Below are positions 6,090 through 40,961 of a DNA stretch of 64,000 nucleotides, in pieces (position 1 is the first letter of the stretch; every line of letters begins with the position of its first letter). Under the pieces are notes generated by a model. The model ran no database searches. It had not been told where the DNA came from and saw nothing but the letters and a program-made list of their open reading frames with translations. Origin of the DNA: an uncultured Candidatus Saccharibacteria bacterium (GTDB lineage: Bacteria; Patescibacteriota; Saccharimonadia; CAILAD01; JADZBC01); the NCBI GenBank assembly GCA_964413715.1, contig CAYPSN010000004.1:7501-71500 (forward strand), read 5' to 3'. The translations under genes were made by a program, and so were the position numbers.

Positions 6090-6165
6090 CAGGGTGTGGC
6101 GCAGTAGGTAGCGCGTACGGCTGGGGGCCGTGAGGTCGCAGGTTCAAGTCCTGTCACCCTGACCA
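6090..6165 (+). tRNA. tRNA-Pro, anticodon GGG, CCA encoded
   Basis: Hand-folded 76 nt cloverleaf: acceptor CAGGGTG/CACCCTG, D-stem GCGC/GCGC, anticodon stem TACGG/CCGTG with loop cTGGGgg (U33, G37), T-stem GCAGG/CCTGT, T-loop TTCAAGT, discriminator A, CCA. The minus-strand ORF 6023..6229 ('GLEPAT..') is its translation shadow. Confidence 0.85.
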
Positions 6166-6192
6166 AGCAATTATTTAGATGCTTAAATATAC

Positions 6193-6221
6193 TTGTTGCA
6201 ACCTTATTTTCTCGATATAAT
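6193..6221 (+). promoter_or_regulatory. Putative promoter of giant gene 1: -35 TTGTTG, 17 nt spacer, -10 TATAAT. The predicted transcript starts at the conserved leader 'aagcattattaa'.
   Basis: Read directly. The paralog at 26888-26916 has an analogous -10 at the same distance from the conserved leader. Confidence 0.4.
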
Positions 6222-6287
6222 AACCACAAGCATTATTAATGGAGAAGTAAGGCGGCTTTTCTCCTAAAGCGTCCAGCACAAACAAAA

Positions 6288-9200
6288 ATGGCCGATAAAG
6301 CCAAAACACTACTACAAAAACTCCACCTCAAGCCTTCAACTACTTTGAAGGTGAGTAAGAGTGCAGTATTTATTCTGCTTGGACTCATTTCGATTCAGAC
6401 GGTAGCTGGCGGATTGCTGTGGTATGCCAAGAAGATCAGGGCCAGCGGTGGCATAGTGCAGACCTCTACACTTGTTGCAAGCATACCTGGCTCAAATGGG
6501 GCAGCGTTTGGTAATAGCGTCACGGTAGATGCTAGTGGCAATAAGTATGTTATGGAGTGGTTTAGTGGCATTATCCATAAATATAACAGCTCGGGCGTGC
6601 AGTTGGTGCAATGGGGTGGTAGAAGTAGCAACTTTCTAAATGAGTATGTCCAGGGACAGTTCTATACTGGTGAGTGGAGTTATGCGATAGCCGCCAGCCC
6701 ATCTGGCGATATTTATGCCACGAACGTAGACCATATAGAACGATTTACTAATACAGGTACTTCTGTGACAAGCTGGATCTTGCCGGACGGCTATAGAACT
6801 ATGGGCGGAATAACAGTGGACTCACTTGGCAACGTATACGTAGCCGCTGGACCAAATATCCAAGATCAGCAGTTCGCGCCAAATCAAATTATGAAGTTTG
6901 GCCCTAATGGTGGTGCGACATTGGCACGATGGGGAAGCACGGGCAGTGGGGATGGTCAGTTTTTCAACTCAAATCTATCCCTTGCGAGCCTTCAGCTAGC
7001 TACTGATAGTTCTAATAATGTTTATGTAGTCGACTCCGGGAATTATAGGGTTCAGAAGTTTAATTCAACAGGTAACTATATAGCGCAGTGGGGGTCGCAG
7101 GGGTCAAATGGAAATCAGTTTTTGGGCCCATTTGGAATTGTTGTTACGGCCGATAACAATGTGTACGTTCAAGATGTTGACCAAAATATAGCTGGTGCAC
7201 AGACCTTGAAGAAATTTACGTCATCAGGTCAATTTTTGGCCCAAGCAGCACTACCCAGCTCACAATCAAGTCTGCTTTATGCTCTGGCGAGTGATGGAGG
7301 TAAGTACTTTGTTGCAACAATTCTCGAACCGATTGATGGTAATACATCTGTCGCTAAACTTATCCGTTTGCAAGATACTCTTTCAATAGAGATCACGGCT
7401 AATTCCCTGCCAAATGGTGCGGTTGGCCAGGCCTATTCACAGCAGATTAACGTGGCCGATGCGCAGGGTGATGTTGCATATACAACAACTTCAGGTTCTT
7501 TGCCTGCTGGGCTAAGCCTGAATAGTTCTACTGGTGCGATTACTGGTACGCCGACTACAGCTGGAACATACTCATTTACCGTCCAGGCCGCTGACAATGA
7601 GGCGAGTGACACGCAGGCGTTTGTAATTGTGGTCGATGCTGTAGGTAGGCAGGTTACAACCTTGCAGGTTACAGCAACGAATGAGGATTCGGTAACTATG
7701 AAGGGCACTACGAACCTACCGAGCGATGTTTTACAAGCCGGATTTCAGTATGGCCTAGATACCAACTACGGCTCCAGCCTCTCTTATGATCCAGGTAATA
7801 ACTTTCAAAATTCTTTTTCTTATGAACGTCAAGCTGGCGGATACGGTTCAGGCAATGGTCAAATGAACCAGCCGCTCGATGTGGCGACTGATGCACTAGG
7901 AAAAGTCTACGTTGTGGACACCCAGAATAACAGAATCCAGACTTTTACCTTGTCGGGTGAGTACGTTGGGCAATGGGGTAGTGCAGGATCCGGAAACGGT
8001 CAGTTCAACACTCCTACTCATGTTACCGTTGGGCAAAATGGCAACATTTATGTACTAGATTACGGCAACCAGAGGGTGCAGGTATTTGACTCGTCAGGCG
8101 CCTACATTGCACAGTGGGGCGGGTATGGTTCGGGCAATGGGCAGTTCATCAATCCTCAAGGGGGTATTGATACCGACAGTCAGGGTAATGTGTATGTTGG
8201 AGATACAGCGAACAATCGGGTGCAGAAGTTTGACGCAGCAGGGCTGTATCTTGGGCAGTGGGCCGTTACCAACCCCAAAGGATTGGCCGTGAATTCGGTT
8301 GACAGCGTTTATGTATCCCAAGGAGGATACAATACAATTAGGAAGTTCAGTTCTACGGGCACCCCTCAAGGAGTTATTGGTGGCACAGGCGGTGGATTAT
8401 ATGGCGCTGGTTCGGCTAACGGTGAGTTTGATGGTGTGTACGGTATTGATATAGATCTCGATACAAATCGCATCTTTGCTGCTGACGAAGGGAACTCTCG
8501 AGTTCAGGTGCTTGATGCTGATGGGGTATATATAGCAAAGTTTGGCGCCGCTGGGGCAGGGAATGGCCAGTTTGGAAACGAACGACTAGAAGTCGCTGTT
8601 GCCCCAGATGGGACGGTATTTGTCTCGGACGCTGCGAATGATAGAGTTCAGAAATTTGCAGGACCAATACAAGTGTTCACTAACGGGCTAACTTGTAATA
8701 CAACATATCACTACCGCGCCTTTGCTACAGATACAAACGGGACTGTTTACGGAAATGATGCAGCATTTACAACAAATGCCTGCCCTGACGTCCCGATAAA
8801 TATTACGAATCTTACGCTGCAAGATGGTATGGAATTGGTTGAGTATCAAGACCTAATAAACGTCGAGAATGCCACTGGTCCCGTAGGGTATTATGTAACG
8901 AGCGGTGATCTACCTCCGGGCTTAAGCCTGAATGCGACTACGGGCTACATTAATGGTACGCCAACTACTGCCGGCACATATAATTTCGATGTGACAGTGA
9001 GTGATAGTAATTCTCAAGATATCGTTAATTACAATCTTACTATTTTGAACTACACACCTCCTTTGGAAATAACTACAGCGGCGCTTCCTGATGCACAGTT
9101 AGTGGACTACTCTTTGACGTATAACGAGTATGTATACACTGCGAATAATCAGGGGAACGTGCAGTTTAGTGTTGTGAGTGGCTCATTGCCTCCCGGTATG

Positions 9201-11474
9201 GCGCTTGATAGCGGTTCTACTTCCGCTCACTTGCTTGGATTTACGGGCATACCGGTCGCAGGCACCTATACATTTACTATTCAGGCGCAGGATGAAAGAG
9301 GGAACGGCATAGGAGGTACAGATACTCAGGAATACACCATTGTAGTACCATCTTTACCAAACATTAACATCACAACTACGACACTAGACAATGGTCGAGT
9401 AGGTATACCGTACAATAAGACTATTACCTACGAATGGTATGTGGATCAGCCCACCTTCTCTGTCATATCAGGCTCTTTACCCGATGGCATTTCCCTCACC
9501 CTCAATGGTTACCTTCAGGGTACCCCTACGCAAGTCGGTACTTACACATTCACAGTTCAGGCTGATGACGGTTTTAGCTCTGACACTCAAGAACTAACCT
9601 TAATCGTTGACCCCGCCCCTCCTGCAATCGTAAATACACCTTTCGTCACCATTACCTCACCATCATCTGGTGCTACCTTCACTGGAGGAACCAGTGTCAT
9701 AACAGGTACTGGTCCTGCTAACCAAACCATTGCCTTATTCGTAGACAGCAAGCAGATAGGCACAACCACTGCTAACTCACAGGGTATATGGAGCTACACG
9801 GCCCAAAATATTGCCACAGGCGAGCATACTCTAGATGCCAAATGGATTCCTGGATCAGAGATAATGTTTATTCCCGGCCTCGACCCCTCGGGGGACTTTG
9901 ATGTGCTGAAGGTGATTGACAGCGGCTCCGGAGCGATCGTTAAGACAATTACTCTTAATAACAATGGTTTTATCCCAATCAGTGCAACCTTGGCTAAAGA
10001 TGGTGGCAGTGTATTGGTTTCCGGCCTCAATCAATATTCGGGCAAAGCCGGCATTAAGAATGTTCGGCTAAGTGACATGTCGATAACTACCCTGGAATCA
10101 AATCAAGTAGGAAGAGTCTTCGAAGATGTCGTATTGTCTCCGAATGGTGATATCGGTTACGTCGTCGATGCGTCAATATTTAGTTTATCGGCTCAACTTA
10201 GGAAGTTTGACGTTAGTACTATGACGTTGGATGCCAGCTACGTTGATTTAGGCGACAAATTTAATGCCTCAACGTTGGTGGGCAATGGTCACTTCATTGT
10301 CTTGTCGGACGATGGAACGCAGCTAGCAGTAGCCAATACGGCAGGCGGAGCTAGTTTCACCGTGGTTAACACTAGTGATTTCTCAAGTCAGACAACCCCG
10401 CCAATTAGCCCCCAGGTAGGAGGGAATGGTGTAGTAATCACTGGATTTGATAGAAAAGGCAATACAGCTGTATTGTCACTTATGGACACTTTGGGTCCGT
10501 CGAATAACTACCTGACAGAAACTTCGAGAGTATTTGTCGTAAATACCGACACTCAAGCCGTGACAAGTATACCGACAGCTGGATCTGTCTGGCTGAGTCT
10601 ACACATACTAGGAAATGGTGCAACGTATTTGCAGGGTTTTGACAGTAATAATGCTATTGTTGGCAGACTCAATTCGGACAACGTCCTTACATCTACATCG
10701 GTTCCATTTGGTGATGTGGGTGCTTATGGCGGGTCGAGCCTTCGCTACCTCATTGGTTCCAATGCGTCTCAAGACAAACTGTATACGGCTCTAAGTGATT
10801 CTGATGGAGGTGGTGTGTATGCGAATGTTGTTGAGTGGAACATTACAGGGGCGACTCCTGCATTCGCTAAGCTAATTCGTTTGTCGGGCGTGGCGTCTTA
10901 TGCTGCAGGTTTTGACTTCCTTGGCAGCATTGTGCCGCCAAAAGACAGCATTACCTTTACAGTTCCCGGCTTGCCCAATGAAGATTGTACCAAGACCAAC
11001 ACCTGTGCATGTCAGCAATTAGGCACTTGCCCCAAGCCATGTGGCAGTGTTGGCGGAACTTGCCCTGTATCATGTACCGCTACCAACTCTTGTCCAGTCA
11101 CTACGACGACCGGCGGAAACACGACTATACCTAATATAATAAAGACACCGTTCCCATCTGATGCTGCGCCTACCACGAGTAGACTTGGTTGGTTTGATCG
11201 CAGCGTGTTGTCACTTGCACGCTTTATTCCTGAACAAGCTGCGATTGGCTTCCCATACCTGCTCTTTATCCTTCTGCTTATCTTTGCCTTATCTCTCTAC
11301 TATCAAAGTAGTAATGAGATCCGTAAAGATGCCTTAAACAAACAATTCCTCGCTAAACGTAAATCTATTCGTGCCCAGCAAGACAACTTCATAGCCCTGG
11401 CCTCACACTACATTAACACCCCCATCACCATCATCCAGGGTGGAGTAGAGAATGAGGGGAGGAAATCGAAATGA
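6288..11474 (+). CDS. Giant (1728 aa) two-TM cell-surface protein. Architecture: N-terminal signal-anchor TM, NHL-repeat beta-propellers, several Ig-like (He_PIG/cadherin-like) domains, a further propeller-like region, a Cys/Pro-rich stalk, a C-terminal TM, and a cytoplasmic tail bearing a HisKA H-box-like helix.
   Basis: TM1 'AVFILLGLISIQTVAGGLLWY'. NHL repeats such as 'VVDTQNNRIQTFTLSGEYVGQWGSAGSGNGQFNTP' and 'YVGDTANNRVQKFDAAGLY'. Ig-like 'SGSLPAGLSLNSSTGAITGTPTTAGTYSFTVQAAD'. Stalk 'CTKTNTCACQQLGTCPKPCGSVGGTCPVSCTATNSCP'. TM2 'FPYLLFILLLIFALSLYY'. Tail 'QDNFIALASHYINTPITIIQGG' compares closely with PhoR '[22 protein letters not shown]'. Confidence 0.8.
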   Translation: MADKAKTLLQKLHLKPSTTLKVSKSAVFILLGLISIQTVAGGLLWYAKKIRASGGIVQTSTLVASIPGSNGAAFGNSVTVDASGNKYVMEWFSGIIHKYNSSGVQLVQWGGRSSNFLNEYVQGQFYTGEWSYAIAASPSGDIYATNVDHIERFTNTGTSVTSWILPDGYRTMGGITVDSLGNVYVAAGPNIQDQQFAPNQIMKFGPNGGATLARWGSTGSGDGQFFNSNLSLASLQLATDSSNNVYVVDSGNYRVQKFNSTGNYIAQWGSQGSNGNQFLGPFGIVVTADNNVYVQDVDQNIAGAQTLKKFTSSGQFLAQAALPSSQSSLLYALASDGGKYFVATILEPIDGNTSVAKLIRLQDTLSIEITANSLPNGAVGQAYSQQINVADAQGDVAYTTTSGSLPAGLSLNSSTGAITGTPTTAGTYSFTVQAADNEASDTQAFVIVVDAVGRQVTTLQVTATNEDSVTMKGTTNLPSDVLQAGFQYGLDTNYGSSLSYDPGNNFQNSFSYERQAGGYGSGNGQMNQPLDVATDALGKVYVVDTQNNRIQTFTLSGEYVGQWGSAGSGNGQFNTPTHVTVGQNGNIYVLDYGNQRVQVFDSSGAYIAQWGGYGSGNGQFINPQGGIDTDSQGNVYVGDTANNRVQKFDAAGLYLGQWAVTNPKGLAVNSVDSVYVSQGGYNTIRKFSSTGTPQGVIGGTGGGLYGAGSANGEFDGVYGIDIDLDTNRIFAADEGNSRVQVLDADGVYIAKFGAAGAGNGQFGNERLEVAVAPDGTVFVSDAANDRVQKFAGPIQVFTNGLTCNTTYHYRAFATDTNGTVYGNDAAFTTNACPDVPINITNLTLQDGMELVEYQDLINVENATGPVGYYVTSGDLPPGLSLNATTGYINGTPTTAGTYNFDVTVSDSNSQDIVNYNLTILNYTPPLEITTAALPDAQLVDYSLTYNEYVYTANNQGNVQFSVVSGSLPPGMALDSGSTSAHLLGFTGIPVAGTYTFTIQAQDERGNGIGGTDTQEYTIVVPSLPNINITTTTLDNGRVGIPYNKTITYEWYVDQPTFSVISGSLPDGISLTLNGYLQGTPTQVGTYTFTVQADDGFSSDTQELTLIVDPAPPAIVNTPFVTITSPSSGATFTGGTSVITGTGPANQTIALFVDSKQIGTTTANSQGIWSYTAQNIATGEHTLDAKWIPGSEIMFIPGLDPSGDFDVLKVIDSGSGAIVKTITLNNNGFIPISATLAKDGGSVLVSGLNQYSGKAGIKNVRLSDMSITTLESNQVGRVFEDVVLSPNGDIGYVVDASIFSLSAQLRKFDVSTMTLDASYVDLGDKFNASTLVGNGHFIVLSDDGTQLAVANTAGGASFTVVNTSDFSSQTTPPISPQVGGNGVVITGFDRKGNTAVLSLMDTLGPSNNYLTETSRVFVVNTDTQAVTSIPTAGSVWLSLHILGNGATYLQGFDSNNAIVGRLNSDNVLTSTSVPFGDVGAYGGSSLRYLIGSNASQDKLYTALSDSDGGGVYANVVEWNITGATPAFAKLIRLSGVASYAAGFDFLGSIVPPKDSITFTVPGLPNEDCTKTNTCACQQLGTCPKPCGSVGGTCPVSCTATNSCPVTTTTGGNTTIPNIIKTPFPSDAAPTTSRLGWFDRSVLSLARFIPEQAAIGFPYLLFILLLIFALSLYYQSSNEIRKDALNKQFLAKRKSIRAQQDNFIALASHYINTPITIIQGGVENEGRKSK

Positions 11475-11755
11475 CCCTTATGCTCGCTCACATAGCTATG
11501 GTGGAGTACACTCTAGGCAGGAGTAGTATCATGAAGTTAAGAATCTTAACCCTGGCTTTATTGTTAGCGGCCTATGGCTATTACCTGCAAGGCACAAAAG
11601 CAGCAATTGACAGTCAAATAAGTAAAATTTCTGCTATGTATTCGCAGGCTGCAATGTTTTCGCCTGCGACCGGCCAAGTCGATGAAAATGCGGATGTGAG
11701 TATAAAAAGTGATCATTCTCTTTCAGGTGTATATAGGGAGGATGTAGGGCGATGA
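11471..11755 (+). CDS. Small hypothetical protein with an N-terminal hydrophobic segment. Possibly the remnant of the kinase gene that follows the paralog.
   Basis: ATGA overlap with the giant gene stop and with the HIT gene start. 'MKLRILTLALLLAAYGYY' is hydrophobic. Its 5' nucleotides loosely align with the 5' end of 33450..34721. Confidence 0.3.
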   Translation: MTLMLAHIAMVEYTLGRSSIMKLRILTLALLLAAYGYYLQGTKAAIDSQISKISAMYSQAAMFSPATGQVDENADVSIKSDHSLSGVYREDVGR

Positions 11756-12171
11756 GTCAAAGTATTTTTTCACGCATAATTAGCGGTGAAGAGCCGGGCG
11801 AAATAGTGTACGAAGACAGTCTGCACGCCATTTTGCTCAGTCGCGCGCCGCAGCGGCCGGGTCATAGTTTGGTTGTGCCGAAACGCGAAGTTACACGGTT
11901 TTATGAAATGGACAGCGAGGCGTATATATCAATGATGCAGCTCGTGCGCGCGTATGCTCAACGACTGAATGAAATTTACAAGCCCAAGGTAGTTGCACTG
12001 GAGGTGATGGGCTTGGGTGTCGATCACGTCCATGTTCACGTCGTGCCAATAGAGGACGAACATGACCTGGATCAGGATAGGGCAAAGTTCGTGGGCTTAG
12101 AAATAATTCGCCCGGAAGGCAAGAAGATCCGTTCATACCTTGCTCAGCACCCGCTTAGAGAGCTACAATAA
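11752..12171 (+). CDS. HIT family (histidine triad) nucleotide hydrolase
   Basis: Histidine triad 'GVDHVHVHVVP' (HxHxHxx), 139 aa. Confidence 0.8.
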   Translation: MSQSIFSRIISGEEPGEIVYEDSLHAILLSRAPQRPGHSLVVPKREVTRFYEMDSEAYISMMQLVRAYAQRLNEIYKPKVVALEVMGLGVDHVHVHVVPIEDEHDLDQDRAKFVGLEIIRPEGKKIRSYLAQHPLRELQ

Positions 12172-12176
12172 CTATT

Positions 12177-12962
12177 ATGCTTATCGTTCTATTACTTTCC
12201 GTCGTGCAGGGGATTAGTGAATTTTTGCCTATCTCGTCTTCTGCTCATTTGCTAGTTGTGCCTTGGCTTTTTAACCTACAAGATTTAGGCCTTACATTCG
12301 ATGCAGCCATTCACATCGGTACAGCAATAGCGCTTTTATTATTTTTCTACAAAGATTTCTGGCGACTTGTTAAGGAGAAAAACCCCTTGCTCTGGTACAT
12401 TGTAGTGGCTTCGGTGCCGGCAGCACTCTTTGGATTCCTCGGTGATAAATGGATTGAATCTGTCTTGCACGAAAGCTCGATAGCACCGCTTGTGGTTGGT
12501 TTGGGCATGATTTTGTTCAGCTTTTTGCTGCTTTACATCGACAACACGGCCAAGCTAGAGCACACAAGCAAAGACATAACGCTCAAGGATACGTTAATCA
12601 TTGGGTTTGCACAGGCTTTAGCATTGATTCCGGGTACATCACGATCAGGAATTACTATGACTGCCGGATTATGGCGCGGGCTAAAGCGCGAAGATGCTGC
12701 ACGGTTTAGCTTCTTGCTGGCTGCACCAATTAGCCTCGGCGCAGGACTATATAAAACCCTTGGATTGGTTAAAAATCCTAACCCAGATCTGTCTATTTTA
12801 CAGCTTGTGGTTGGCATCGTCGCGTCCTGCTTGGTGGGCTTGGCTGTCATACGGTGGCTGATACGCTATGTTGGTTCACATAATTTGCGTCTTTTTGTGG
12901 TTTATCGGGTAGCATTTGGCGTAATCGTGATCGCCATATGGCTATGGCGGGCTGTTCTATGA
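12177..12962 (+). CDS. uppP: Undecaprenyl-diphosphate phosphatase
   Basis: N-terminal 'GISEFLPISSSAHL' is the UppP/BacA signature. Polytopic, 261 aa. Confidence 0.85.
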   Translation: MLIVLLLSVVQGISEFLPISSSAHLLVVPWLFNLQDLGLTFDAAIHIGTAIALLLFFYKDFWRLVKEKNPLLWYIVVASVPAALFGFLGDKWIESVLHESSIAPLVVGLGMILFSFLLLYIDNTAKLEHTSKDITLKDTLIIGFAQALALIPGTSRSGITMTAGLWRGLKREDAARFSFLLAAPISLGAGLYKTLGLVKNPNPDLSILQLVVGIVASCLVGLAVIRWLIRYVGSHNLRLFVVYRVAFGVIVIAIWLWRAVL

Positions 12963-13378
12963 AGCTACCAGCCGAAATTAAGGTTTTTTGCGACGGTGGT
13001 TCACGCGGTAATCCAGGACCAGCAGCAGCAGGCGTAGTAATAACTACAACAGATGATAAAGTCTTGCTCGAAGTAAATAAATACTTAGGTATACGTACAA
13101 ATAATTACGCAGAGTATCAAGCGGTTATATTGGCGCTTGAGACAATTTTCGAGCATGGAGTCGAGCAGGCTAATTTTTACCTGGACAGCGAGCTGGTTAC
13201 GAAGCAGCTCAACGGCGAATACCGCGTGAAGCACCCCGACATGCAGCCACTTTACCTTCGGGTGCAAGAGCTTGTGGGCGTGGTGGGGGCTCACAAAGTG
13301 CGTTTTGTCCACGTGCGTAGAGAGTTTAATAAGCTCGCCGATGCACAGGTCAATAAGTGTCTCGACGAGCAGATTTAG
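12959..13378 (+). CDS. rnhA: Ribonuclease HI
   Basis: 'IKVFCDGGSRGNPGPAAAGVVI...NNYAEYQAVILAL' carries the RNase H catalytic D/E motifs. The start is chosen at the ATG overlapping the uppP stop (ATGA). Confidence 0.8.
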   Translation: MKLPAEIKVFCDGGSRGNPGPAAAGVVITTTDDKVLLEVNKYLGIRTNNYAEYQAVILALETIFEHGVEQANFYLDSELVTKQLNGEYRVKHPDMQPLYLRVQELVGVVGAHKVRFVHVRREFNKLADAQVNKCLDEQI

Positions 13379-13381
13379 ACG

Positions 13382-13410
13382 TCGACAAATAGGCCATATT
13401 ATGGTAGAAT
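13382..13410 (+). promoter_or_regulatory. Putative promoter of RNase P RNA: -35 TCGACA, 17 nt spacer, extended -10 TGgTAGAAT
   Basis: tcgaca at 13382-13387; tggtagaat at 13402-13410. Confidence 0.4.
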
Positions 13411-13417
13411 ATTGATC

Positions 13418-13850
13418 TAGCTAGTTAATGTGCGATCGCTCCCTTCCGAGGGAGAGGAAAGTCCGAACAGCATAGAGCAGAGTGGTTGCTAACGGCAACC
13501 GGGGGCAACCCTAGGGAAAGTGCCACAGAGACAATACCGCCCCTCACCATTTTGTATAGTTACTGGTTATAGACTTGTTCTGAGCGTAAGTGTATGAAAT
13601 GGTGAGGGGTAAGGGTGAAAAGAGTGCGGTAAAAGCGCACAGCATGCGTGGGTGACCACGTGTGGAGGTAAACCCCACTTGCTGCAAGACTATGGGCCCA
13701 GCCATTTGGCAGAGCTGCTCGCTCTTTATGGGTTTGTCGCACGATCTGCCTTTACCGGCAGACGCGGGCGTTGTTATGACGCATGAGATAGATGATCGCT
13801 AGCTTCTTTATCGAAGCAAAACAGAATTCGGCTTATACGTTATCTAGCTA
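13418..13850 (+). ncRNA. rnpB: RNase P RNA (bacterial type)
   Basis: 5' P4 strand 'GAGGAAAGTCCGaac' at about 13454-13468. Conserved core 'CATAGAGCAGAGTGGTTGCTAACGGCAACCGGGGGCAACCCTAGGGAAAGTGCCACAGAGACAATACCGCC' (compare E. coli M1 'CAUAGGGCAGGUGCCAGGUAACGCCUGGGGGGGAAACCCACGACCAGUGCAACAGAGAGCAAACCGCC'). 3' P4 strand 'ACAGAATTCGGCTTAT' at 13821-13836 pairs with the 5' strand and leaves the conserved bulged U. No protein ORF is present; the minus-strand ORF 13560..13742 is spurious. Confidence 0.85.
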
Positions 13851-13857
13851 GGCAAAG

Positions 13858-13890
13858 TGCCCAACCCTAATAGGAGTGTTGGGCTTTTTG
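13858..13890 (+). terminator. Rho-independent terminator after rnpB
   Basis: 'gcccaac cctaataggagt gttgggc ttttt'. Confidence 0.6.
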
Positions 13891-13918
13891 TATGCTAGAA
13901 TAGAGCAAGAAGCAACTA

Positions 13919-26341: not shown

Positions 26342-26729
26342 GGGGCTGATCAGCTTCGACGTTGGAATCTTGAAATATAACTGCAGGTCGCCTAATCGAC
26401 GTTACAGATTAAACCCAATAAGTGTAAACACACTCGTTAGCAAAGTAAAAGCTGCTTTTCGCATGCCAAGCTTTGCGCCAGCTTTCGCTTAATTGATGAA
26501 AGCCGTTTTCGTAGCTGACGTCAGATACGCTACAAGACGTCACTTTATCTGACTGCCTAATGGTCGTTCTGTCCGATTGTTGTTAAGACAAAGAACAGAA
26601 AAGTGTTGCGTGCGTTTCGCTTACTTATAGCGCGCAAACCTTTTGAAACAAAGCTCAAGTAAGCTAAGCCTGTAGTAGGTTATATAGATGGACTAGCGGA
26701 CCAGGGTGCGATTCCCTGCAGCTCCACCA
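26342..26729 (+). ncRNA. ssrA: tmRNA (SsrA)
   Basis: 5' end 'GGGGCTGATCAGCTTCGACGTTGG' matches the tmRNA 5' consensus (E. coli GGGGCUGAUUCUGGAUUCGACGGG). 3' end has T-arm 'cAGGGtgcgattCCCTg', acceptor strand 'CAGCTCC', then A-CCA. The 7 bp acceptor stem includes the G3:U70 alanine identity pair. Candidate tag ORF '(A)AFRMPSFAPAFA' ends at TAA 26490-26492. The structure is bracketed by a promoter and a terminator and contains no long ORF. Confidence 0.8.
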
Positions 26730-26776: not shown

Positions 26777-26887
26777 ATTTGTATTTGTAATGTAGAAATT
26801 ACAACATGCATTAACAGGTTGGGGGCGTGAAAAATTGGGATCGAATATGAATTGTGTTCAATTAGCAGAAAATGATAATTTTTCTCC

Positions 26888-26916
26888 TGGACTTATCCTG
26901 TTGGGAAGGCTAAAAT
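26888..26916 (+). promoter_or_regulatory. Putative promoter of giant gene 2 (-10 TAAAAT), placing the TSS at the conserved leader 'aagcattattaa'
   Basis: Read directly. Position relative to the conserved leader is the same as in paralog 1. Confidence 0.35.
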
Positions 26917-26994
26917 ATACATAAGCATTATTAACAGGGAATAGATGGTGGCTTTTCTCCTGTAAAAGAGATACCATCAAAAACAAAACAACCC

Positions 26995-29900
26995 ATGGCC
27001 GATAAAGCCAAATTATTACTACAAAGATTCCATCTCAAACCTTCTACTACCCTGAAGGTGAGTAAAGGTGCGGTTTTTGTACTCCTTGCCATGATTTCTA
27101 TTCAGACCGTAGCGGGCGGCTTATTGTGGTATGCAAAGCAAATCAGGGCGGCGAGTGGCCTGCAACATGTGAAGAGCTACGCTGAAGGTGATGGGTCGGG
27201 TAAAATTATCGCGGCTGATAGTCAAAATAACTTTTACGTTTTTGACTTAAGTGATTATGTAGTTAAGAAATATGATGCTGGCGGCAACTTACTTGGTCAA
27301 GTAGGTGCTTCGGGGAGCGACCCAGGGCAGTATGCAAATGTAAGCGGCATGGCAACCGATAGCTCAGGCAACCTATATGTTTTAGATTCTGGCAACAATC
27401 GAGTTATCAAGTATAGTTCAAATGGTAGCTACAGCGGCACTAGTTGGGGGAGTTATGGTACGGGGGATGGTGAATTTGGCTCGTTGGGGTCAATTGCGAT
27501 TAGCTCCGCTGATGACATCTATATAGTCGATGCAGGCAACAGTCGCATCCAGAGGTTTAATTCTTCTGGTGGTTTTGTAAATAAGTGGGGTTCGGCAGGC
27601 TCTGGCGCAGGGCAGTTTAATTACCCATACGGGATTACCACCGATTCTACAGGTTCGGTATATGTGTCGGAAGGTTTTTCTGGTCGTGTGCAGAAGTTTG
27701 GTGCAGCTGGGGGGGCACCTACGGCCACTTGGACGCCAGGAGGGTGGGGTGGTTATATGGCGCGTGGCCCAGGAGATGTAATTTATGTAACTAGCTTGGG
27801 TGGCCTCGTAATAAGGAGTTATAATACCAGCGGAATCTTGCAGAACAGTTGGGGAGGAAGTGGCGGTGGTGCCGGAACATTTAGCGGTCCGTACCTCGAT
27901 GGGACCCTAGCCCTAGATACGTCTGGGAATGTTTACGTGGCTGATTATGGTAATGCGCATATCCAAAAGTTCACTGCTGCAGGATCATATGTAGGTGTCT
28001 ATATTGGTCGTGGTAAGGCAAGCGGCGTGCAGGATGTGGCAACAGACGGTTCTGGTGGTAACATTTACCAGGTAGGCAATGGCTACCTGCGTAAGATTCG
28101 GCGTTCTGATGGTAAGCTAGTCTTCTCTACAAGCATTACAGGGAGTTCTGTAGATGTATCTCCTGACGGCAACTATGTATATGTACTTGCCTCAGGCTGG
28201 GCTGATCCAAATGCACGGGTTACAAAGCTTACATCTTCAGGCACAGTGGTGACACAATGGGGTACTTTTGGTGAGGCAGAAAACCAGTTCAAGGGGGCAG
28301 AGGCACTTGCCGTTGGTGAAGATGGCAGCGTGTATGTGGCGGACACAGCCAACCACCGTATTCAAAAGTTCGATGCGAACGGAAGCTTCTTGCTCATGTG
28401 GGGCTGGGGTGTTCAAAATGGCACAGCTGAGTTTCAAACCTGCACTTCTGGCTGTCAAACTGGTATAGCAGGTAACGGCGACGGGCAATTCGACATGACC
28501 GACTGGTATGGTACAGGCCCCAACCGAGGCCTCGATGTCGACAGCCAAGGGAACGTTTATGTAGCGGACATGCATAACGCCCGAATCCAAAAATTCAGTT
28601 CTACAGGGTCATTTTTTGGTAAATGGGGTTCATTTAGTGATGCCCAGGGCGGCTTTAAATATCCCTATGCCATATCAATTGATTCTCAAGATAATATTTA
28701 CGTATCTTGTATTCTTGGGGCGGGTGAGCGGATTCAGCGCTTTAATTCAAATATGCAGTTTGTGTCAGAATTTACAACAGCAGGTAATTTAGTCCTTTCT
28801 AACCCTCAGGGGATTGCCGTTGATGAACAAGGCCACTTATATGTAGCAGACACTTCAAACAATCGAATCCAGCAATTTAAATACAATTTCTGGTTATCAA
28901 TATCTAATACAGGAGGCGGTGATGGCGTGACCGGCCAGCCATACACAAGCACAGTAGGTATAGACGATCCTCAGGGTCCCACAACGTTCACTGTGACGAG
29001 CGGTAGTTTGCCGCCCGGCCTCTCCCTCAATAGTTCGACCGGCGTAATTAGTGGTACCCCTACTTTGGCTGGCCAGTATACCTCATATATAACCGTCAGT
29101 GATGGCCAGACTTCTGCAGTTACACCAGGCACTACAATTACGATTACTGACCCTCCTCCTGCACCACTCGCGTTTTCTTCTGCTCCGCTGCCCCATGCAA
29201 GAGTTGGCCGCTCGTACTCCCAGCACGTCGACTTAAACAATGTAGTGGGGACGGCGCATTATGAATTAATCAATGCACAACCTTGGAATTCTGGCCTCAG
29301 CTTTAATCCTCAGACGGGGATGATTACTGGAACACCTAATTCAAACAGTCCTACAGTGAGGTTCTCCTTGGAAGCATATGACGATAGATGGTGGGTTACA
29401 AGCACTACAGTCACCGTCACTATAGAATCCGCACATACTGTTACAACGCTGCCAGCCACAGGTTTAGAGGATACAATTACGGGCATAAAGGCGGTTTTAA
29501 ATGGTGCCACCAACTATCCGGACGAGATAACAAATCGAGGTTTTGAATATGGCCTCGATACGAATTATGGCAATACAGTTGTTGATAATACAGCAAATTC
29601 TAGCTACAAAGCTGCTCAGACTTGGAATACAGTTGCGAGCGGCACCACCATGTCAAATGCCAATGAGAGTATGACAATGGATGCAGGTGGGAATAGTTAT
29701 ATCGTCGATTCGTTTAATAGTCGTATACTCAAGTATTCTAAGACCGGCGTTCTTCTCGCAACTTGGGGGTCAGCAGGAACGGGACAAGTAGAATTTAACG
29801 CCCCAGCTGATATTGCTATTGGACCGAGTGGCAACTTCTACGTGGTCGATGCAGGCAATAATCGAGTGCAAATTTTAAACTCATCTGGGTTGTATGTTGG

Positions 29901-32900
29901 TGAATTCGCCCTGCCTTCAGAGGGAGGGAAAGCTATTGCAGTAGACTCGCAAGAGCACATCTACGTAAGTGGCGATGAGTGGAGTGGGCCTTGGTACTTG
30001 AGGGAGGGCAGGCCATATATCCGAAAATATGATTCTCAAGGCAACTTGCTACTAGATTGGGGCACGGAAGGTACCGGAGACTCTCAGTTTAGGGTGACTG
30101 CTCCGCATGATCTTGCTATTGATGGCAATGATGATCTGTATGCTGCAGACATGTATAACAATAGCGTTAAGAAATTCGATAGCAATGGTAGTTTTATCTT
30201 GAAGATTGGCGGAATGGGCCCATATATATATGGAGCAGGTCAGAGTAATGGGGAGTTTGATCATCCCGCCTCATTGGCTGTTGATGCGAATAACAATGTA
30301 TTTGTAGGTGACTATAGCTGGAGAATTCAAAAGTTTGGCATCTCTGGTGTATTTAAATCCAGCTCGCATATTGCAAATGGTGGCTTGTCTTTTGATGTGG
30401 ATGCTGAAGAGAATCTCTTTGTGGCTACTTGGGGTAATCCAAATCAACTTATCAAATATTCCTCAGGTATTGAATCCGCTATCTCAGGCCTAGTATGTGG
30501 CAACACTTATCACTACCGTGCCTTTGCAACAAGCACTGATGGTACGAAATATGGTGACGATGAAGTATTTACAACAGACGCTTGTCCTGACACTCCAATT
30601 TCAATAACGACGTCCTCCCTCTCTACAGGGTATGTGGGGCAGAATTATAGCGAGATCATTAATGTCACTGGTGCTACTGGAAACGTATCATATTTCCTAT
30701 CAGGCGGATCGGACTACCTGCCCTCTGGTTTAAGCTTGGACCCAAACACAGGTGTTATCTCCGGCAACCCGCAAGCCTCTGGAACCGCCAACATTTGTAT
30801 CCGGGCAATGGACGACAACTCGGATGACTTGAGGTGTTGGGATTTAACCATACAGAATATCGTTCCACAGCTAGAAATTACGACCCCGTTATTGCCGGAT
30901 GCCACCCTGTCTGGTATGCAATACGATTACTACAATTCGAACATTTATGTGCAGGGTGCTATAACTAACGACGTTGCGTTTACAGTAGTTAGCGGTGAAT
31001 TGCCTCCCGGACTTAGCCTCCAAGACAACACTTATTATGCAGCTATAATTGGCACTCCAACACAGGCCGGAGTATATACGTTCACAGTCGAGGCAAACGA
31101 TGGCTGGAGAGGATCACCTGGGTTTGCGTGGCAAGAATATACTATTGTTGTTCCTCCTACTTCACTTCCTAGTCTCTATATTGATACCACTTCACTCAGC
31201 AATGGCCTTGTAGGTATCCCATATAATTCCACTATTTACTATCAAGATGCTCAATCTCAACCTGTCTTCTCTCTTGTTTCCGGCTCGTTGCCACCAGGTA
31301 TTTCTTTAAGCCTGGAAGGCTACCTCCAGGGTACACCTACTGAGGCTGGCACCTACACCTTCACAGTCCAAGTTGACGATGGCTTTAGCAGTGACACCCA
31401 AGAACTCACCTTGACTATAGCCCCGCCTCCACTGCCTATAGTAAACACCCCATTCGTAACCATTACCTCACCAACTACAGGATCTACCTTTGCCGGTGGA
31501 ACAAGCGTTATAACTGGTACTGGTCCTGCCAATCAGACTATTACTATCTTCGTAGATAACCAGCAAATAGGTACTACCGCTGCCAACTCTGAAGGAATAT
31601 GGACGTATACTGCACAGAACATTGCAGCCGGTAGCCACAACTTGGACGCCAAGTGGGTGCCGGGAGCAGAGGTGATGTTTAGAACCTCTCTGGACTTTGC
31701 TGCTCTCACTACAAAGCTGACAGTTTACGACACGGCGACTGACACTGTAGTCAAAGAGTTGGCGTTGCCCCCATACGCATTTGCATGGGGCGCGTATGTT
31801 CCGCCTCAAGGTCAAAAAATTGTGGCCTATGGTATAGATGCGAGTTCTACATTCGGGACTTACTGGCAAATAGATCTAAATTCTGGCGCCATCACTACTA
31901 TTTCTACTGGCAGTACCGTTTATCCCAATGACATGGCAGCTAACAGAGATACTATGTTTACATCGGTAGCTGGCGGACTTTTTGCGACTCGGGTGTCAGA
32001 TGGCTCCTCACTTGGTCCGATTAATCTTGGCATCCCTTCAGAGCTGAACATTCCTTTTAACTTACAGCTCTCTGAAGACGGTACACGACTTTACGCCTAC
32101 TCGGGTATCGTAACTGGTTTGCCTTCTTTCCTTTCATACTCAAATAATTGGCTCGAGCAAGCCCTGCCATACATGGGGAAGATATTCGTCATTAATACGT
32201 CTGACCTGAGTGTTATTAGTAGTTATAATACAATTGATAATACTAATTGGCAGACAGAAGGGTATGAAGTTCCATTTGGGTTTGCCTATGCCAATGGAGT
32301 CGCATATGTGCCATCTGGAAGTTATCCTGCGACTCAAACCCCTCCTGACTTTGAGGTAGAAACTAATTTCAAGGCATATTCCTTGTCAAGTGGCGCATTA
32401 TTATACAGTCACAATATCTCTGCTGATTACCCGCAGGATGATATCCTTGCAGGGGGGGGTTACATCGATTCTACTCGCGGCAATGTATTCTTTAAGACTA
32501 TTAGTATTGATAATGACCAGTCAGTGCTTAAACCTGGCCTTGCTCGATGGAATTTAGTAAGTAATTCGGTCGATCAATACACGGTTGTATCTGATCAGAT
32601 TCAAGAAGGGCAGGATAACGCCTCCCTGGCCGACATGTATCTATTGAACTTTTTGAGTTGGGGTATGGATGGGGGGGGAAATAATGAGCGCTTGTATCTT
32701 ACAGGTCTAGGGGGCAATTATACTGGCGTTACTTACGCATTCTCACTTTCTAATAATCAATTTGTAGAGGGTAGCGGCTATCCGCTTACACACGGCACAC
32801 CTGGTAGTTCCATTGCATACCAATTTGGCCCCAACTTCATCGGTCCTATCACCCCACCTAAGGACAGTATGGCCTTCTCTGTACCATCGACTCCTGAGCC

Positions 32901-40856: not shown

Positions 40857-40961
40857 ATCTTGGATTATCTTAAAGCTTAAGCTATAGCAGTAGCATACCA
40901 TTTTTTACAGTGCTTAACCAGGTAGACGCTGATATAATAATAGGTATGAAGAGGGTGGAGA

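What the first reader, a model, noticed from the sequence alone, without database searches (positions are those of the whole stretch)
6288..11755. Paralogous giant sensor-like protein that retains the H-box tail but has lost the kinase ATPase partner
Seen in sequence: 6288..11474 (1728 aa) has the same TM-NHL/Ig-stalk-TM layout and an almost identical tail ('QDNFIALASHYINTPITIIQGGVENEGRKSK*'; His codon 11406-11408). What follows is only a 94 aa ORF (11471..11755) whose 5' nucleotides loosely align with the 5' end of the kinase gene 33450..34721, and then a HIT gene. Inference: the kinase partner was deleted after duplication, leaving a giant surface protein with an orphan phospho-acceptor helix. 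That helix might still be served in trans by the single kinase at 33450..34721. One CA subunit partnering two different giant sensors would be an unusual signalling arrangement.
Basis: partly seen in the sequence, partly recalled or inferred. Interest (0 to 1): 0.6.

Follow-up and report, generated by a model that had tools for sequence, protein, structure and literature searches.

The report
Giant sensor sharing a split kinase
A giant surface protein of a Saccharibacteria-type bacterium ends in only the histidine-bearing helix of a histidine kinase, and related genomes show it has long sat apart from the one gene encoding the rest of that kinase, so it most likely signals through a kinase core shared with a second giant protein.

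Summary
The observation largely holds. 6288..11474 encodes a 1728-aa, two-TM NHL/Ig surface protein. Its 56-aa cytoplasmic tail is an H-box helix (His1707, 11406..11408), 97% identical to the tail of giant B (26995..33450). No kinase gene follows it.

The tail is helix alpha1 of the first DHp of a Saccharimonadia kinase family. Unsplit members read sensor-TM-DHp1(His)-TM hairpin-His-less DHp2-ATPase. Tail plus 33450..34721 aligns collinearly with them (E 5e-51).

Giant A shows no sign of having lost a partner. Its locus (tRNA-Pro, giant, small ORF, HIT, BacA) lacks a kinase in all five genomes that have it. In two of them it is the only giant found, 18-19 kb from the only kinase found. The 94-aa ORF is an unrelated, conserved small membrane protein.

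The tail is under strong purifying selection (omega 0.04-0.08), and the His is invariant in 137/137 relatives.

Best reading: a split histidine kinase in which one His-less kinase core serves one or two giant sensor subunits in trans. A related lineage split independently after alpha2 and also has kinase-less giants. No response regulator is linked. Phosphorylation is inferred, not shown.

The parts
6216..6287 (+). Promoter-like TATAATA box and 5' leader of giant A, shared with giant B. It includes the inverted repeat GGAGAA...TTCTCC.
   Evidence: The alignment of 6166-6340 with 26820-27047 is conserved from the TA(T/A)AATA box to the ATG. blastn of the upstream regions gives 76% identity.
6288..11474 (+). 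Giant A: 1728-aa bitopic surface protein. It is the sensor and phospho-acceptor subunit, at the conserved locus A.
   Evidence: ORF and translation. Pfam NHL, He_PIG and Big_7. The locus is syntenic in L012, L013, L014 and L015.
6360..6428 (+). N-terminal transmembrane segment of giant A (res 25-47). It follows a conserved 24-aa cytoplasmic N-terminus.
   Evidence: Hydropathy scan, translation, and the conserved N-terminus in relatives.
11235..11303 (+). C-terminal transmembrane segment of giant A (QAAIGFPYLLFILLLIFALSLYY).
   Evidence: Hydropathy scan and translation. GFPY and the hydrophobic core are invariant in the tail alignment.
11304..11471 (+). 56-aa cytoplasmic tail: a juxtamembrane helix followed by the H-box helix (DHp1 alpha1). 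It ends 21 residues after the His.
   Evidence: Pfam HisKA positions 2-26. The tail profile finds fused kinases and truncated giants. dN/dS is 0.036-0.085.
11379..11444 (+). H-box helix QDNFIALASHYINTPITIIQGG. His1707 is at 11406..11408.
   Evidence: Translation. The homologous His of the fused relative aligns with the phospho-acceptor His of HK853 (His260 in the published numbering, cited from my own knowledge). The His is invariant in 137/137 relatives, and His+1 is Tyr in 135/137.
11531..11755 (+). Conserved small membrane ORF (74 aa from the internal ATG of the 94-aa ORF). It is not part of the kinase system by homology.
   Evidence: The region between giant A and HIT aligns in 5 genomes. 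The MK/R..AYGYYLQ core is conserved, with TTATGCTCGC and TATAAT upstream. It has no similarity to the kinase and no Pfam or NCBIfam hit.
26911..26994 (+). Promoter-like box and 5' leader of giant B, homologous to that of giant A.
26995..33450 (+). Giant B: 2151-aa paralog with the same tail (His2131, 33385..33387). Its stop codon overlaps the start of the kinase gene.
   Evidence: The same giant+kinase junction (TGATG) occurs in L006, L011 and L016.
33450..34721 (+). Kinase subunit (423 aa): N-terminal helical hairpin, two-TM hairpin, His-less DHp2, HATPase_c.
   Evidence: Pfam HATPase_c E 1.8e-18 and no HisKA. There are 11 orthologs besides the window's own sequence (ten are in alignment A2). 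AF2 model. Foldseek top hits are CpxA, HK853 and ZraS. hhalign to fused relatives gives E 4.9e-52.
33525..33716 (+). N-terminal cytoplasmic helical hairpin of the kinase (res 26-89). The second helix is the probable counterpart of DHp1 alpha2.
   Evidence: AF2 helices 26-58 and 62-89, pLDDT about 75. The DHp1 profile matches the second helix in the same register in all 11 sequences, but weakly (E 0.002-0.09). hhalign is not significant.
33747..33923 (+). Two-TM hairpin of the kinase.
   Evidence: Hydropathy scan, AF2 helices 106-129 and 135-205. It aligns with the TM hairpin of fused relatives.
33924..34169 (+). DHp2, a His-less DHp. Glu193 (34026..34028) occupies the canonical His position. 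The clade-specific His198 is at 34041..34043.
   Evidence: Alignment A2. hhalign to the fused family. HK853 aligned to the fused relative puts Gly at the position of the HK853 phospho-acceptor His in DHp2. The PDB profile aligns from alpha2 onward.
34299..34628 (+). HATPase_c catalytic (CA) domain.
   Evidence: Pfam, PDB profile hits HK853, AdeS, QseC, CpxA and EnvZ, fold search.

Best explanation
Giant A is the sensor and phospho-acceptor subunit of a split, membrane-embedded histidine kinase.

Shown:
- Its cytoplasmic tail is the His-bearing first helix (alpha1) of 'DHp1' of a kinase family found in Saccharimonadia and other Patescibacteria. Unsplit members read ectodomain - TM - DHp1 (SHYLxTP H-box) - two-TM hairpin - DHp2 without a His - HATPase_c.
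- In the window's clade this architecture is cut just after alpha1. The rest is the 423-aa protein encoded at 33450..34721.
- Giant A lies 22 kb from that gene. This unlinked arrangement is conserved in five genomes.
- Giant B is a second copy placed directly upstream of the kinase, with overlapping stop and start codons.

Inferred:
- The kinase subunit dimerises through its His-less DHp2 and carries the ATPase.
- The tail helix of either giant docks on the cytoplasmic helices of the kinase (the N-terminal hairpin and/or DHp2).
- This places His1707, 35 residues below the membrane, at the same depth as the vacant His position of DHp2 (Glu193, 36 residues below the membrane), where the CA domain can phosphorylate it in trans.
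- Ligand or host-surface binding by the NHL/Ig ectodomain would modulate this reaction.
- One kinase core would therefore read out two different giant sensors. The two giants carry near-identical tails and the same 5' leader.
- The downstream acceptor is unknown.
For: Homology and fission:
- The tail profile (A3) searched against 1.84 billion representatives finds 322 relatives. In the motif census of the 148 listed relatives other than the fragments P0002/P0003, 94 are fused proteins with more than 300 aa after the H-box. Seven giants end right after alpha1 and 30 end after alpha2.
- The fused members carry HATPase_c about 235 aa after the H-box.
- Tail B plus the kinase, concatenated, aligns in one collinear HSP with eight fused proteins (E 5e-51 to 2e-27).
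- The kinase family aligns with the fused family at E 4.9e-52.
- In the fused protein of L017, HK853 aligns twice. The DHp1 His falls on the HK853 phospho-acceptor His. DHp2 has Gly at that position.

Conservation of the unlinked state:
- Locus A (M50, PaaX, giant, small ORF, HIT, BacA, RNase H, sugar transferase) is syntenic in the window, L012, L013, L014 and L015. None has a kinase gene.
- In GCA_964600985.1 and GCA_041907025.1 the kinase stands alone at locus B. It is 17.6 kb and 19 kb downstream of the only tail-bearing giant found.

Selection:
- Over 86 tail codons, A versus B gives pS 0.51, pN 0.03 and omega 0.036. Orthologs give omega 0.075-0.085.
- The last 30 codons (the H-box helix) show 0-2 nonsynonymous against 8-16 synonymous changes in four of the five pairs tested. 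The fifth pair, SRP285 A versus B, shows 3.5 against 6.5.
- The membrane-proximal ectodomain is only 21-44% identical between copies.
- The His is invariant in 137/137 relatives, including all 37 truncated giants.

The kinase lacks a canonical acceptor:
- There is no HisKA hit.
- Glu or Asp occupies the His position in all 11 aligned sequences.
- The DHp+CA fold is intact.

Coupling and co-regulation:
- Stop and start codons overlap (TGATG) at giant B/kinase in four genomes.
- Giants A and B share the same leader.

Independent second fission:
- In L027 a giant that ends after alpha2 overlaps a 313-aa kinase that starts at the TM hairpin.
- In L024/L025 three tandem giants of that type have no adjacent kinase.

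Precedent: split kinases are known, for example CheA3/CheA4 (PMC3591291, PMC6829392).
Against: - No biochemical or structural evidence exists for a giant-kinase complex or for phosphorylation.
- The residue after the His is Tyr. It is not the Glu/Asp that canonical HisKA kinases use in catalysis (from my own knowledge of HisKA; the motif HE/DxxN/T is quoted in PMC3591291).
- No receiver domain is encoded in the 64-kb window, in any related locus, or next to fused family members. The pathway therefore has no visible output.
- The giant keeps only alpha1, yet the kinase already begins with two helices. The simple picture of a 'reconstituted hairpin' does not account for all the helices. The equivalence of the second kinase helix with alpha2 is not statistically significant.
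- The kinase clade has an invariant His198, five residues after the canonical position. This could be an acceptor of its own.
- The related genomes are MAGs. 'Only one giant' and 'only one kinase' are therefore lower bounds.
Confidence: 0.55

Rival explanations
1. After duplication of a giant+kinase pair, the kinase copy next to paralog 1 was deleted. This left a recently orphaned H-box tail, with the 94-aa ORF as a relic of the kinase's 5' end.
For: - Giant B has an adjacent kinase and giant A does not.
- The outgroup L017 has the fused form, so adjacency is ancestral at some depth.
Against: - Locus A lacks a kinase in all five genomes, including those in which the kinase is only 56% identical.
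- The A/B similarity ends exactly at the stop codon.
- Nothing in 11401..13900 shows similarity to the kinase at the nucleotide or protein level.
- The 94-aa ORF is a conserved small membrane protein with its own promoter-like box.
Confidence: 0.08
2. The tail is a docking or regulatory helix that is not phosphorylated. It heterodimerises with the helical bundles of the kinase and switches the kinase allosterically, in the manner of DHp-DHp contacts between RetS and GacS. Alternatively it only oligomerises the giant adhesins. The His is kept for packing or binding.
For: - Tyr replaces the catalytic acid at His+1 in 135/137 relatives.
- The DHp hairpin in the giant is incomplete.
- No response regulator is linked anywhere in the family.
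- RetS and DivL-type non-canonical kinases appear among the structural relatives of the kinase.
Against: - Absolute conservation of the His and of the whole SHYLxTP motif, in fused and truncated forms alike, is what a phospho-acceptor predicts.
- The fused family has no other conserved His, and DHp2 lacks one, while the CA domain keeps its kinase motifs.
Confidence: 0.22
3. In this clade the kinase has become autonomous. Its clade-specific invariant His198 is the acceptor. The giants' tails would then be conserved for a reason unrelated to the kinase, such as membrane anchoring, sorting or turnover. Giant A would be simply a surface adhesin.
For: - His198 is invariant in all 11 aligned sequences and is absent from fused relatives and from the class-2 kinase.
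- The kinase stands alone, with no adjacent giant, in three related genomes.
Against: - His198 replaces the helix-kinking Pro of the H-box and is not at the position of the canonical acceptor.
- The tail helix is conserved at omega 0.04-0.08, far more tightly than a membrane anchor would need.
- Where contigs allow the test, every genome with the kinase also has a tail-bearing giant.
- Stop and start codons overlap at locus B.
Confidence: 0.12
4. Artefact or pseudogene. The stop after the H-box is a sequencing or assembly error, or a recent nonsense mutation in what should be a full-length giant kinase.
For: Fused giant kinases of about 2100 aa exist in relatives (P0132, L017).
Against: - The same truncation point occurs in nine gene copies from six independent assemblies and in seven cluster representatives.
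- Purifying selection acts on the tail.
- No kinase-like sequence follows in any frame.
Confidence: 0.02

Closest known systems
Split chemotaxis kinase CheA3/CheA4 of Rhodobacter sphaeroides
   Same: The phosphorylatable His module and the ATP-binding kinase module are on two proteins. These form a complex, and the kinase protein phosphorylates the other in trans (PMC3591291, PMC6829392).
   Different: - CheA uses an Hpt-type P1 domain, not a DHp helix, and both of its parts are soluble.
- Here the cut runs through or next to a HisKA-type DHp.
- The acceptor is a single helix on a giant surface protein with two TM segments.
- The kinase subunit is itself membrane-embedded and keeps a complete but His-less DHp.
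Three-protein system HK1/HK2-TcrA (Rv0600c/Rv0601c/Rv0602c) of Mycobacterium tuberculosis
   Same: A HisKA-type kinase is divided into an ATP-binding protein and a His-containing protein encoded by neighbouring genes. The split function is from my own knowledge of the literature. PMC3544749 records only that the system comprises two sensor kinases and one regulator.
   Different: - The mycobacterial parts are small, adjacent, and linked to their response regulator.
- Here the acceptor sits on giant ectodomain proteins.
- One of the giants is unlinked by about 20 kb in every genome examined.
- Two giants share one kinase, and no regulator is linked.
HisKA-only proteins lacking HATPase_c (genomic surveys of potential split kinases)
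   Same: Giant A is, formally, a protein with a HisKA-type H-box and no ATPase. PMC3591291 reports that 3.66% of HisKA-containing proteins belong to this class.
   Different: - Those proteins have a complete HisKA domain, and many carry the HE/DxxN/T motif.
- Giant A has only the first helix (HisKA profile positions 2-26 of 66, below the Pfam threshold), with HY instead of HE/D.
Unsplit relatives with two DHp modules (e.g. P0131 834 aa, P0132 2103 aa, the 2112-aa protein of L017, P0139 605 aa)
   Same: They share the TM-juxtamembrane-SHYLxTP helix, the two-TM hairpin, the His-less DHp2 and the CA motifs (FKPFSR..AL.F.YEG.GLSLYL). They are collinear with tail+kinase.
   Different: - They are one polypeptide.
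- In the window the same modules are spread over three genes (two giants and one kinase).
- No Pfam or NCBIfam model describes this architecture. All NCBIfam hits are far below their cut-offs.
Canonical HisKA sensor kinases (HK853, CpxA, EnvZ, PhoR)
   Same: The fold of DHp2+CA is shared (Foldseek E 1e-12 to CpxA; profile E 6e-17 to HK853). The H-box sequence of the tail is also shared.
   Different: In canonical kinases the His lies in the DHp directly attached to the CA domain. Here that DHp has Glu, Asp or Gly at the His position. The His sits in a separate helix on the other side of a membrane hairpin, or on another protein.
RetS-GacS and DivL-type non-canonical kinases
   Same: These are kinases or pseudo-kinases that act through DHp-DHp contacts or lack the acceptor His (from my own knowledge). 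RetS and DivL chains appear among the sequence relatives of the kinase.
   Different: They are complete single polypeptides. None donates a lone H-box helix from a separate giant receptor.

Membership tests
Canonical HisKA-type sensor histidine kinase (one polypeptide) | H-box helix with the phospho-acceptor His | tested here: met
   The tail matches Pfam HisKA positions 2-26 (E 2e-3 to 4e-3, below the gathering score) and the PhoR/PnpS H-box region. The homologous His of the fused relative aligns with the HK853 phospho-acceptor His.
Canonical HisKA-type sensor histidine kinase (one polypeptide) | Complete DHp hairpin (alpha1 + alpha2) in the same protein | tested here: not met
   Giant A ends 21 residues after the His. 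HisKA profile positions 27-66 are absent.
Canonical HisKA-type sensor histidine kinase (one polypeptide) | HATPase_c catalytic domain in the same protein | tested here: not met
   There is no HATPase_c hit in giant A or giant B. Nothing kinase-like is present in any frame downstream of giant A.
Canonical HisKA-type sensor histidine kinase (one polypeptide) | Acidic residue (Glu/Asp) directly after the His | tested here: not met
   His+1 is Tyr in the window and in 135/137 relatives.
Split histidine kinase (acceptor and ATPase on separate proteins) | A protein with the acceptor module but no ATPase | tested here: met
   Giants A and B have the H-box tail and no HATPase_c.
Split histidine kinase (acceptor and ATPase on separate proteins) | A separate ATPase-bearing protein that lacks the canonical acceptor His | tested here: met
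   33450..34721 has HATPase_c, no HisKA hit, and Glu193 at the His position in an otherwise intact DHp+CA fold. Caveat: the clade-specific His198.
Split histidine kinase (acceptor and ATPase on separate proteins) | Homologs in which the two parts are fused in the same order (Rosetta-stone evidence) | tested here: met
   Tail plus kinase is collinear with eight fused proteins (E 5e-51 to 2e-27). hhalign gives E 4.9e-52. 94 fused representatives were counted.
Split histidine kinase (acceptor and ATPase on separate proteins) | Physical complex and trans-phosphorylation of the acceptor His | not testable with these tools
   This needs biochemistry or multimer modelling. Only indirect support is available: co-occurrence, stop/start overlap at locus B, and equal membrane-to-His spacing of 35 versus 36 residues.
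Split histidine kinase (acceptor and ATPase on separate proteins) | A cognate response regulator | tested here: inconclusive
   A receiver-domain HMM and phmmer probes find nothing in the window or in the Saccharimonadia loci fetched up to that call (L001-L017, L024). They find many receivers in the unrelated control loci L018-L023. The Pfam listings for L026-L029 show no receiver domain. Whole genomes were not available.
Kinase family with two DHp modules in Saccharimonadia and other Patescibacteria (delineated here, not a curated family) | TM, then about 35 residues, then the (S/T)HY(L/I)x(T)P H-box | tested here: met
   The tail alignment A3 and 137 relatives share the motif.
Kinase family with two DHp modules in Saccharimonadia and other Patescibacteria (delineated here, not a curated family) | Two-TM hairpin, His-less DHp2 and CA following DHp1 in the same protein | tested here: not met
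   These are absent from giant A. They are supplied by the separate gene 33450..34721.

The most novel reading that the evidence does not exclude
Saccharimonadia may use a modular receptor system. Several interchangeable, fast-evolving giant surface proteins would each contribute nothing to signalling but one His-bearing helix, or one small DHp hairpin. All would plug into a single shared, His-less, membrane-embedded kinase core. This would be a bacterial counterpart of receptors that share a common kinase subunit. The design would have arisen at least twice by cutting a kinase with two DHp modules at different points. It could be how these epibionts couple recognition of the host surface to intracellular signalling.
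Probability: 0.35. Interest if true: 0.8.

Novelty: new variant of a known kind. Interest (0 to 1): 0.6.

Why it matters
Split histidine kinases are known but rare, and the studied cases are soluble or small.

- Here the cut runs at the acceptor helix of a HisKA-type DHp.
- The acceptor is carried by giant, rapidly diversifying surface proteins of an ultrasmall, probably epibiotic bacterium.
- One ATPase subunit appears to serve one, two or more of these proteins.

If the inference is confirmed, it would do three things:
- Define a new kinase architecture: His-bearing DHp1, a membrane hairpin, a His-less DHp2, then CA.
- Show that a four-helix DHp can be assembled from separate gene products.
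- Give a concrete, testable route from host or particle recognition to signalling in Patescibacteria, where signal transduction is almost unexplored.

There is also a practical point for annotation. These giants are not annotated as signalling proteins at all, because the tail falls below the Pfam threshold.

Tried and rejected
- Kinase relic downstream of giant A: rejected. MAFFT, blastn, blastp and tblastn show nothing above chance.
- The 94-aa ORF as a degenerate DHp alpha2: rejected. It is a conserved small membrane protein with its own start at 11531.
- Recent gene conversion without selection as the cause of tail identity: rejected. The tails differ by 14% in nucleotides and 3% in protein, with omega 0.036. 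Within-genome copies are nevertheless more alike than between-genome copies in the window and in MAG_140, so older conversion or concerted evolution is likely. In SRP285395 the two tails are not homogenised.
- Statistical proof that the kinase N-terminus contains DHp1 alpha2: not obtained. hhalign gives probability 3.9%. A DHp1 HMM gives only marginal E-values, though in a consistent register.
- Similarity of the first kinase helix to the H-box: none found.
- Search for free-standing kinases of other lineages with a TM-hairpin+DHp2 alignment (A4): nothing scored. One such kinase was found instead through the gene context of P0141.
- Scan of metagenome contigs with the tail alignment: no confirmed locus.
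- Response-regulator search: negative.
- Literature searches for this architecture in Saccharibacteria or Patescibacteria: nothing relevant. The first search for split kinases also gave nothing relevant. A later one found the CheA3/CheA4 papers.
- Programmed frameshift or readthrough fusing giant B to the kinase: considered unlikely. The stop is followed by a second in-frame TGA and then a TAG (read from the junction sequence printed). I also see no slippery heptamer. The TGATG overlap is of the kind usually linked to translational coupling (my own knowledge).
- Order of events: undecided. Either giant B was inserted upstream of a free kinase, or giant B was lost in the group without it. The ectodomain trees are too weak to tell.


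Full report
**1. What is at the coordinates**

- ORF 6288..11474 (+) encodes 1728 aa.
- The protein has a conserved 24-residue N-terminus, a TM segment (res 25-47), and an ectodomain of about 1600 aa. The ectodomain carries NHL repeats, He_PIG Ig-like domains and a Big_7 domain. A second TM segment follows (res ~1650-1672).
- A 56-residue cytoplasmic tail follows: QSSNEIRKDALNKQFLAKRKSIRAQQDNFIALASHYINTPITIIQGGVENEGRKSK*. His1707 is at 11406..11408.
- Giant B (26995..33450, 2151 aa) has the same plan. The two are 37% identical over most of the ectodomain. Over the last 86 codons before the divergent C-terminal residues they are 97% identical in protein and 86% in nucleotides.
- Pfam HisKA matches both tails at profile positions 2-26 of 66 (E 2e-3 and 4e-3). 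This is below threshold because only the first helix is present.
- Downstream of giant A lie a 94-aa ORF and a HIT gene. Downstream of giant B lies 33450..34721, which has HATPase_c and no HisKA hit. Its start overlaps the stop of giant B by one base.
- The one part of the observation that fails is the 'loose alignment' of the 94-aa ORF with the 5' end of the kinase gene. Identity between the two loci ends at the stop codon. No search finds similarity above chance.

**2. What the tail is**

- A profile of four tails (A3) was searched against 1.84 billion cluster representatives. It found 322 relatives.
- A motif census covered the 148 listed relatives other than the fragments P0002 and P0003. 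It gave three classes:
  - 94 'fused' proteins with more than 300 residues after the H-box. Their lengths run from about 600 to more than 2100 aa.
  - 7 giants that stop right after the H-box helix, as in the window.
  - 30 giants that stop about 60 residues after the start of the H-box motif, that is, after a second helix.
- The fused proteins carry HATPase_c about 235 residues after the H-box, far more than in an ordinary kinase.
- Their sequences read: TM, about 35 residues, the SHYLxTP helix (alpha1), a second helix (alpha2), two TM segments, a second DHp-like hairpin, then CA.
- In the fused 2112-aa protein of L017, HK853 aligns twice. Once it aligns to DHp1, where the His falls on the HK853 phospho-acceptor His (His260 in the published numbering, from my own knowledge). 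Once it aligns to DHp2+CA, where Gly occupies that position.
- The family therefore has a His-bearing DHp1 and a His-less DHp2, separated by a membrane hairpin. All three cytoplasmic modules lie on the same side of the membrane.
- The His is invariant in 137/137 members where the motif can be located. The next residue is Tyr in 135 of them.
- No Pfam or NCBIfam model covers this architecture. I found no paper describing it.

**3. What the 'kinase' is**

- The 423-aa product of 33450..34721 has 11 orthologs besides the window's own sequence (55-70% identity). All have HATPase_c only. The next-best hits drop steeply to ordinary kinases.
- The AF2 model (mean pLDDT 65) shows helices 26-58 and 62-89, then TM helices 106-129 and 135 onward. 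The second TM helix runs on without a break to residue 205. A helix 212-240 and an alpha/beta CA domain follow.
- Foldseek places residues from about 160 onward on CpxA, HK853 and ZraS DHp+CA cores.
- The position equivalent to the acceptor His is Glu193. It is Glu or Asp in all 11 aligned sequences.
- Tail B and this protein, written one after the other, align in a single collinear HSP with eight fused proteins (E 5e-51 to 2e-27). Profile against profile gives E 4.9e-52 from the TM hairpin to the end.
- Giant B plus the kinase is therefore a fission product of the fused architecture.

**4. Comparative genomics of the two loci**

- Locus A reads M50 protease, PaaX-like (-), tRNA-Pro, giant, small ORF, HIT, BacA, RNase H, RNase P RNA, sugar transferase.
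  - It is syntenic in the window and in four Saccharimonadia MAGs: L012, L013, L014 and L015.
  - In none of them does a kinase gene follow the giant.
- Locus B reads glycosyltransferases (-), tmRNA, [giant B], kinase, small ORF or NUDIX, aldolase (-), SmpB (-).
  - It carries giant B in the window, L006, L011 and L016, always with a TGATG stop/start overlap.
  - In L001, L003 and L009 the kinase stands alone.
- L001 and L014 are parts of one contig (GCA_964600985.1). L003 and L015 are parts of another (GCA_041907025.1). In those genomes the only tail found lies 17.6 kb and 19 kb upstream of the kinase, on the same strand.
- A giant at locus A unlinked from the kinase is therefore the conserved state. 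Giant B is the variable element.
- The similarity between the paralogs runs from a shared promoter-like box and leader, about 72-85 nt upstream of the ATG, exactly to the stop codon.
- Whether giant B was added in front of a free kinase, or was lost in the other group, remains open.

**5. Selection**

- Between giants A and B of the window, the 86 tail codons have pS 0.51 and pN 0.03, giving omega 0.036.
- Between orthologs, omega is 0.075-0.085.
- In the last 30 codons (the H-box helix), four of the five pairs tested show 0-2 nonsynonymous against 8-16 synonymous differences. The SRP285 A/B pair shows 3.5 against 6.5.
- The adjacent membrane-proximal ectodomain is only 21-44% identical between copies.
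- The tail is thus the most constrained part of these proteins, in copies with and without an adjacent kinase.
- Within-genome tails are more alike than between-genome tails in the window and in MAG_140, but not in SRP285395. This suggests occasional homogenisation on top of purifying selection.

**6. A second, independent fission**

- In another lineage the giants end after alpha2 (…THYLHTPLTVMEGEI…ATKLKATLASLSAEAEA…*).
- In L027 such a giant overlaps a 313-aa kinase. That kinase begins just before the TM hairpin and aligns with residues 98-386 of the window kinase (E 4e-23). It has Asp at the His position of DHp2.
- In L024/L025 three such giants lie in tandem, with RmuC and tRNA synthetase genes downstream and no kinase next to them.
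- The pattern of several acceptor-bearing giants, with a kinase elsewhere or next to only one of them, therefore recurs.

**7. Mechanism proposed**

The proposed mechanism and which parts are shown or inferred are set out under Best explanation. Two points add to it.

- The case for trans-phosphorylation rests partly on geometry. His1707 lies 35 residues below the membrane. Glu193 lies 36 residues below it, counted from the translations.
- Split kinases that work in trans are established for CheA3/CheA4 (PMC3591291, PMC6829392). From my own knowledge they are also established for the mycobacterial HK1/HK2 pair.

**8. Weak points**

- Phosphorylation and complex formation are untested.
- Tyr replaces the catalytic acid next to the His.
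- No receiver domain is encoded in the window, in any related locus, or beside fused family members.
- The kinase starts with two helices, although only alpha2 would be expected after a cut behind alpha1.
  - The second helix matches alpha2 only weakly.
  - The first helix has no detectable similarity to the H-box.
  - One possibility is that the kinase descends from an N-terminally truncated copy of a fused gene whose own alpha1 lost its His.
- The clade-specific invariant His198 could be an alternative acceptor.
- The related genomes are MAGs.

**9. Verdict**

- The finding is real and is neither an artefact nor a pseudogene.
- It is best filed as a new variant of a split histidine kinase.

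Noticed in passing
window 6216..6287 and 26911..26994: Giants A and B share a promoter-like TA(T/A)AATA box and a conserved 5' leader. The leader contains AAGCATTATTAA and an inverted repeat GGAGAA...TTCTCC just upstream of the ATG. This points to common regulation, possibly through a 5'-UTR hairpin.
   Followed up: partly
window 6090..6165 and 26342..26729: Each giant gene lies directly downstream of a stable-RNA gene: tRNA-Pro(GGG) before giant A and tmRNA before giant B. This could be coincidence, a strong upstream transcription unit, or a preferred integration or recombination site.
   Followed up: no
window 11531..11755: A small conserved membrane ORF (MKLRILTLALLLAAYGYYLQ...) follows giant A in five genomes. 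A conserved TTATGCTCGC and, in four of the five, a TATAAT box precede it. It has no family match.
   Followed up: partly
window 34041..34043 (His198 of the kinase): An invariant His, specific to this kinase clade, replaces the helix-kinking Pro of the H-box. It lies five residues after the canonical His position (Glu193). It is absent from fused relatives and from the class-2 kinase.
   Followed up: partly
window 33525..33716: The kinase starts with a two-helix hairpin (AF2 helices 26-58 and 62-89). This is one helix more than a cut behind DHp1 alpha1 would leave. The invariant residues L40, V44, A50 and Y54 line one face of the first helix.
   Followed up: partly
L024 and L025, 1..11103: Three giants whose tails carry a complete DHp1 (1628, 1260 and 1700 aa) lie in tandem with overlapping or nearly abutting ORFs. 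RmuC and TrpRS genes follow, and there is no kinase.
   Followed up: partly
L029 2878..6857: Two fused paralogs with two DHp modules (617 and 618 aa) lie on the same strand, separated by a 54-aa ORF on the opposite strand, among housekeeping genes. No response regulator is nearby.
   Followed up: no
window 38796..40901 (-): A 701-aa protein whose syntenic counterparts in all related loci (683-692 aa) have no precomputed Pfam hit. Those counterparts lie between ArgRS and a UvrD/PDDEXK helicase gene. The window protein itself was not scanned.
   Followed up: no
window 13421..13851: Bacterial RNase P RNA class A (220.9 bits) lies between the RNase H gene and the sugar transferase gene of locus A. 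In the relatives a gap of about 470-520 nt separates the same two genes, but the RNA was not searched for there.
   Followed up: no
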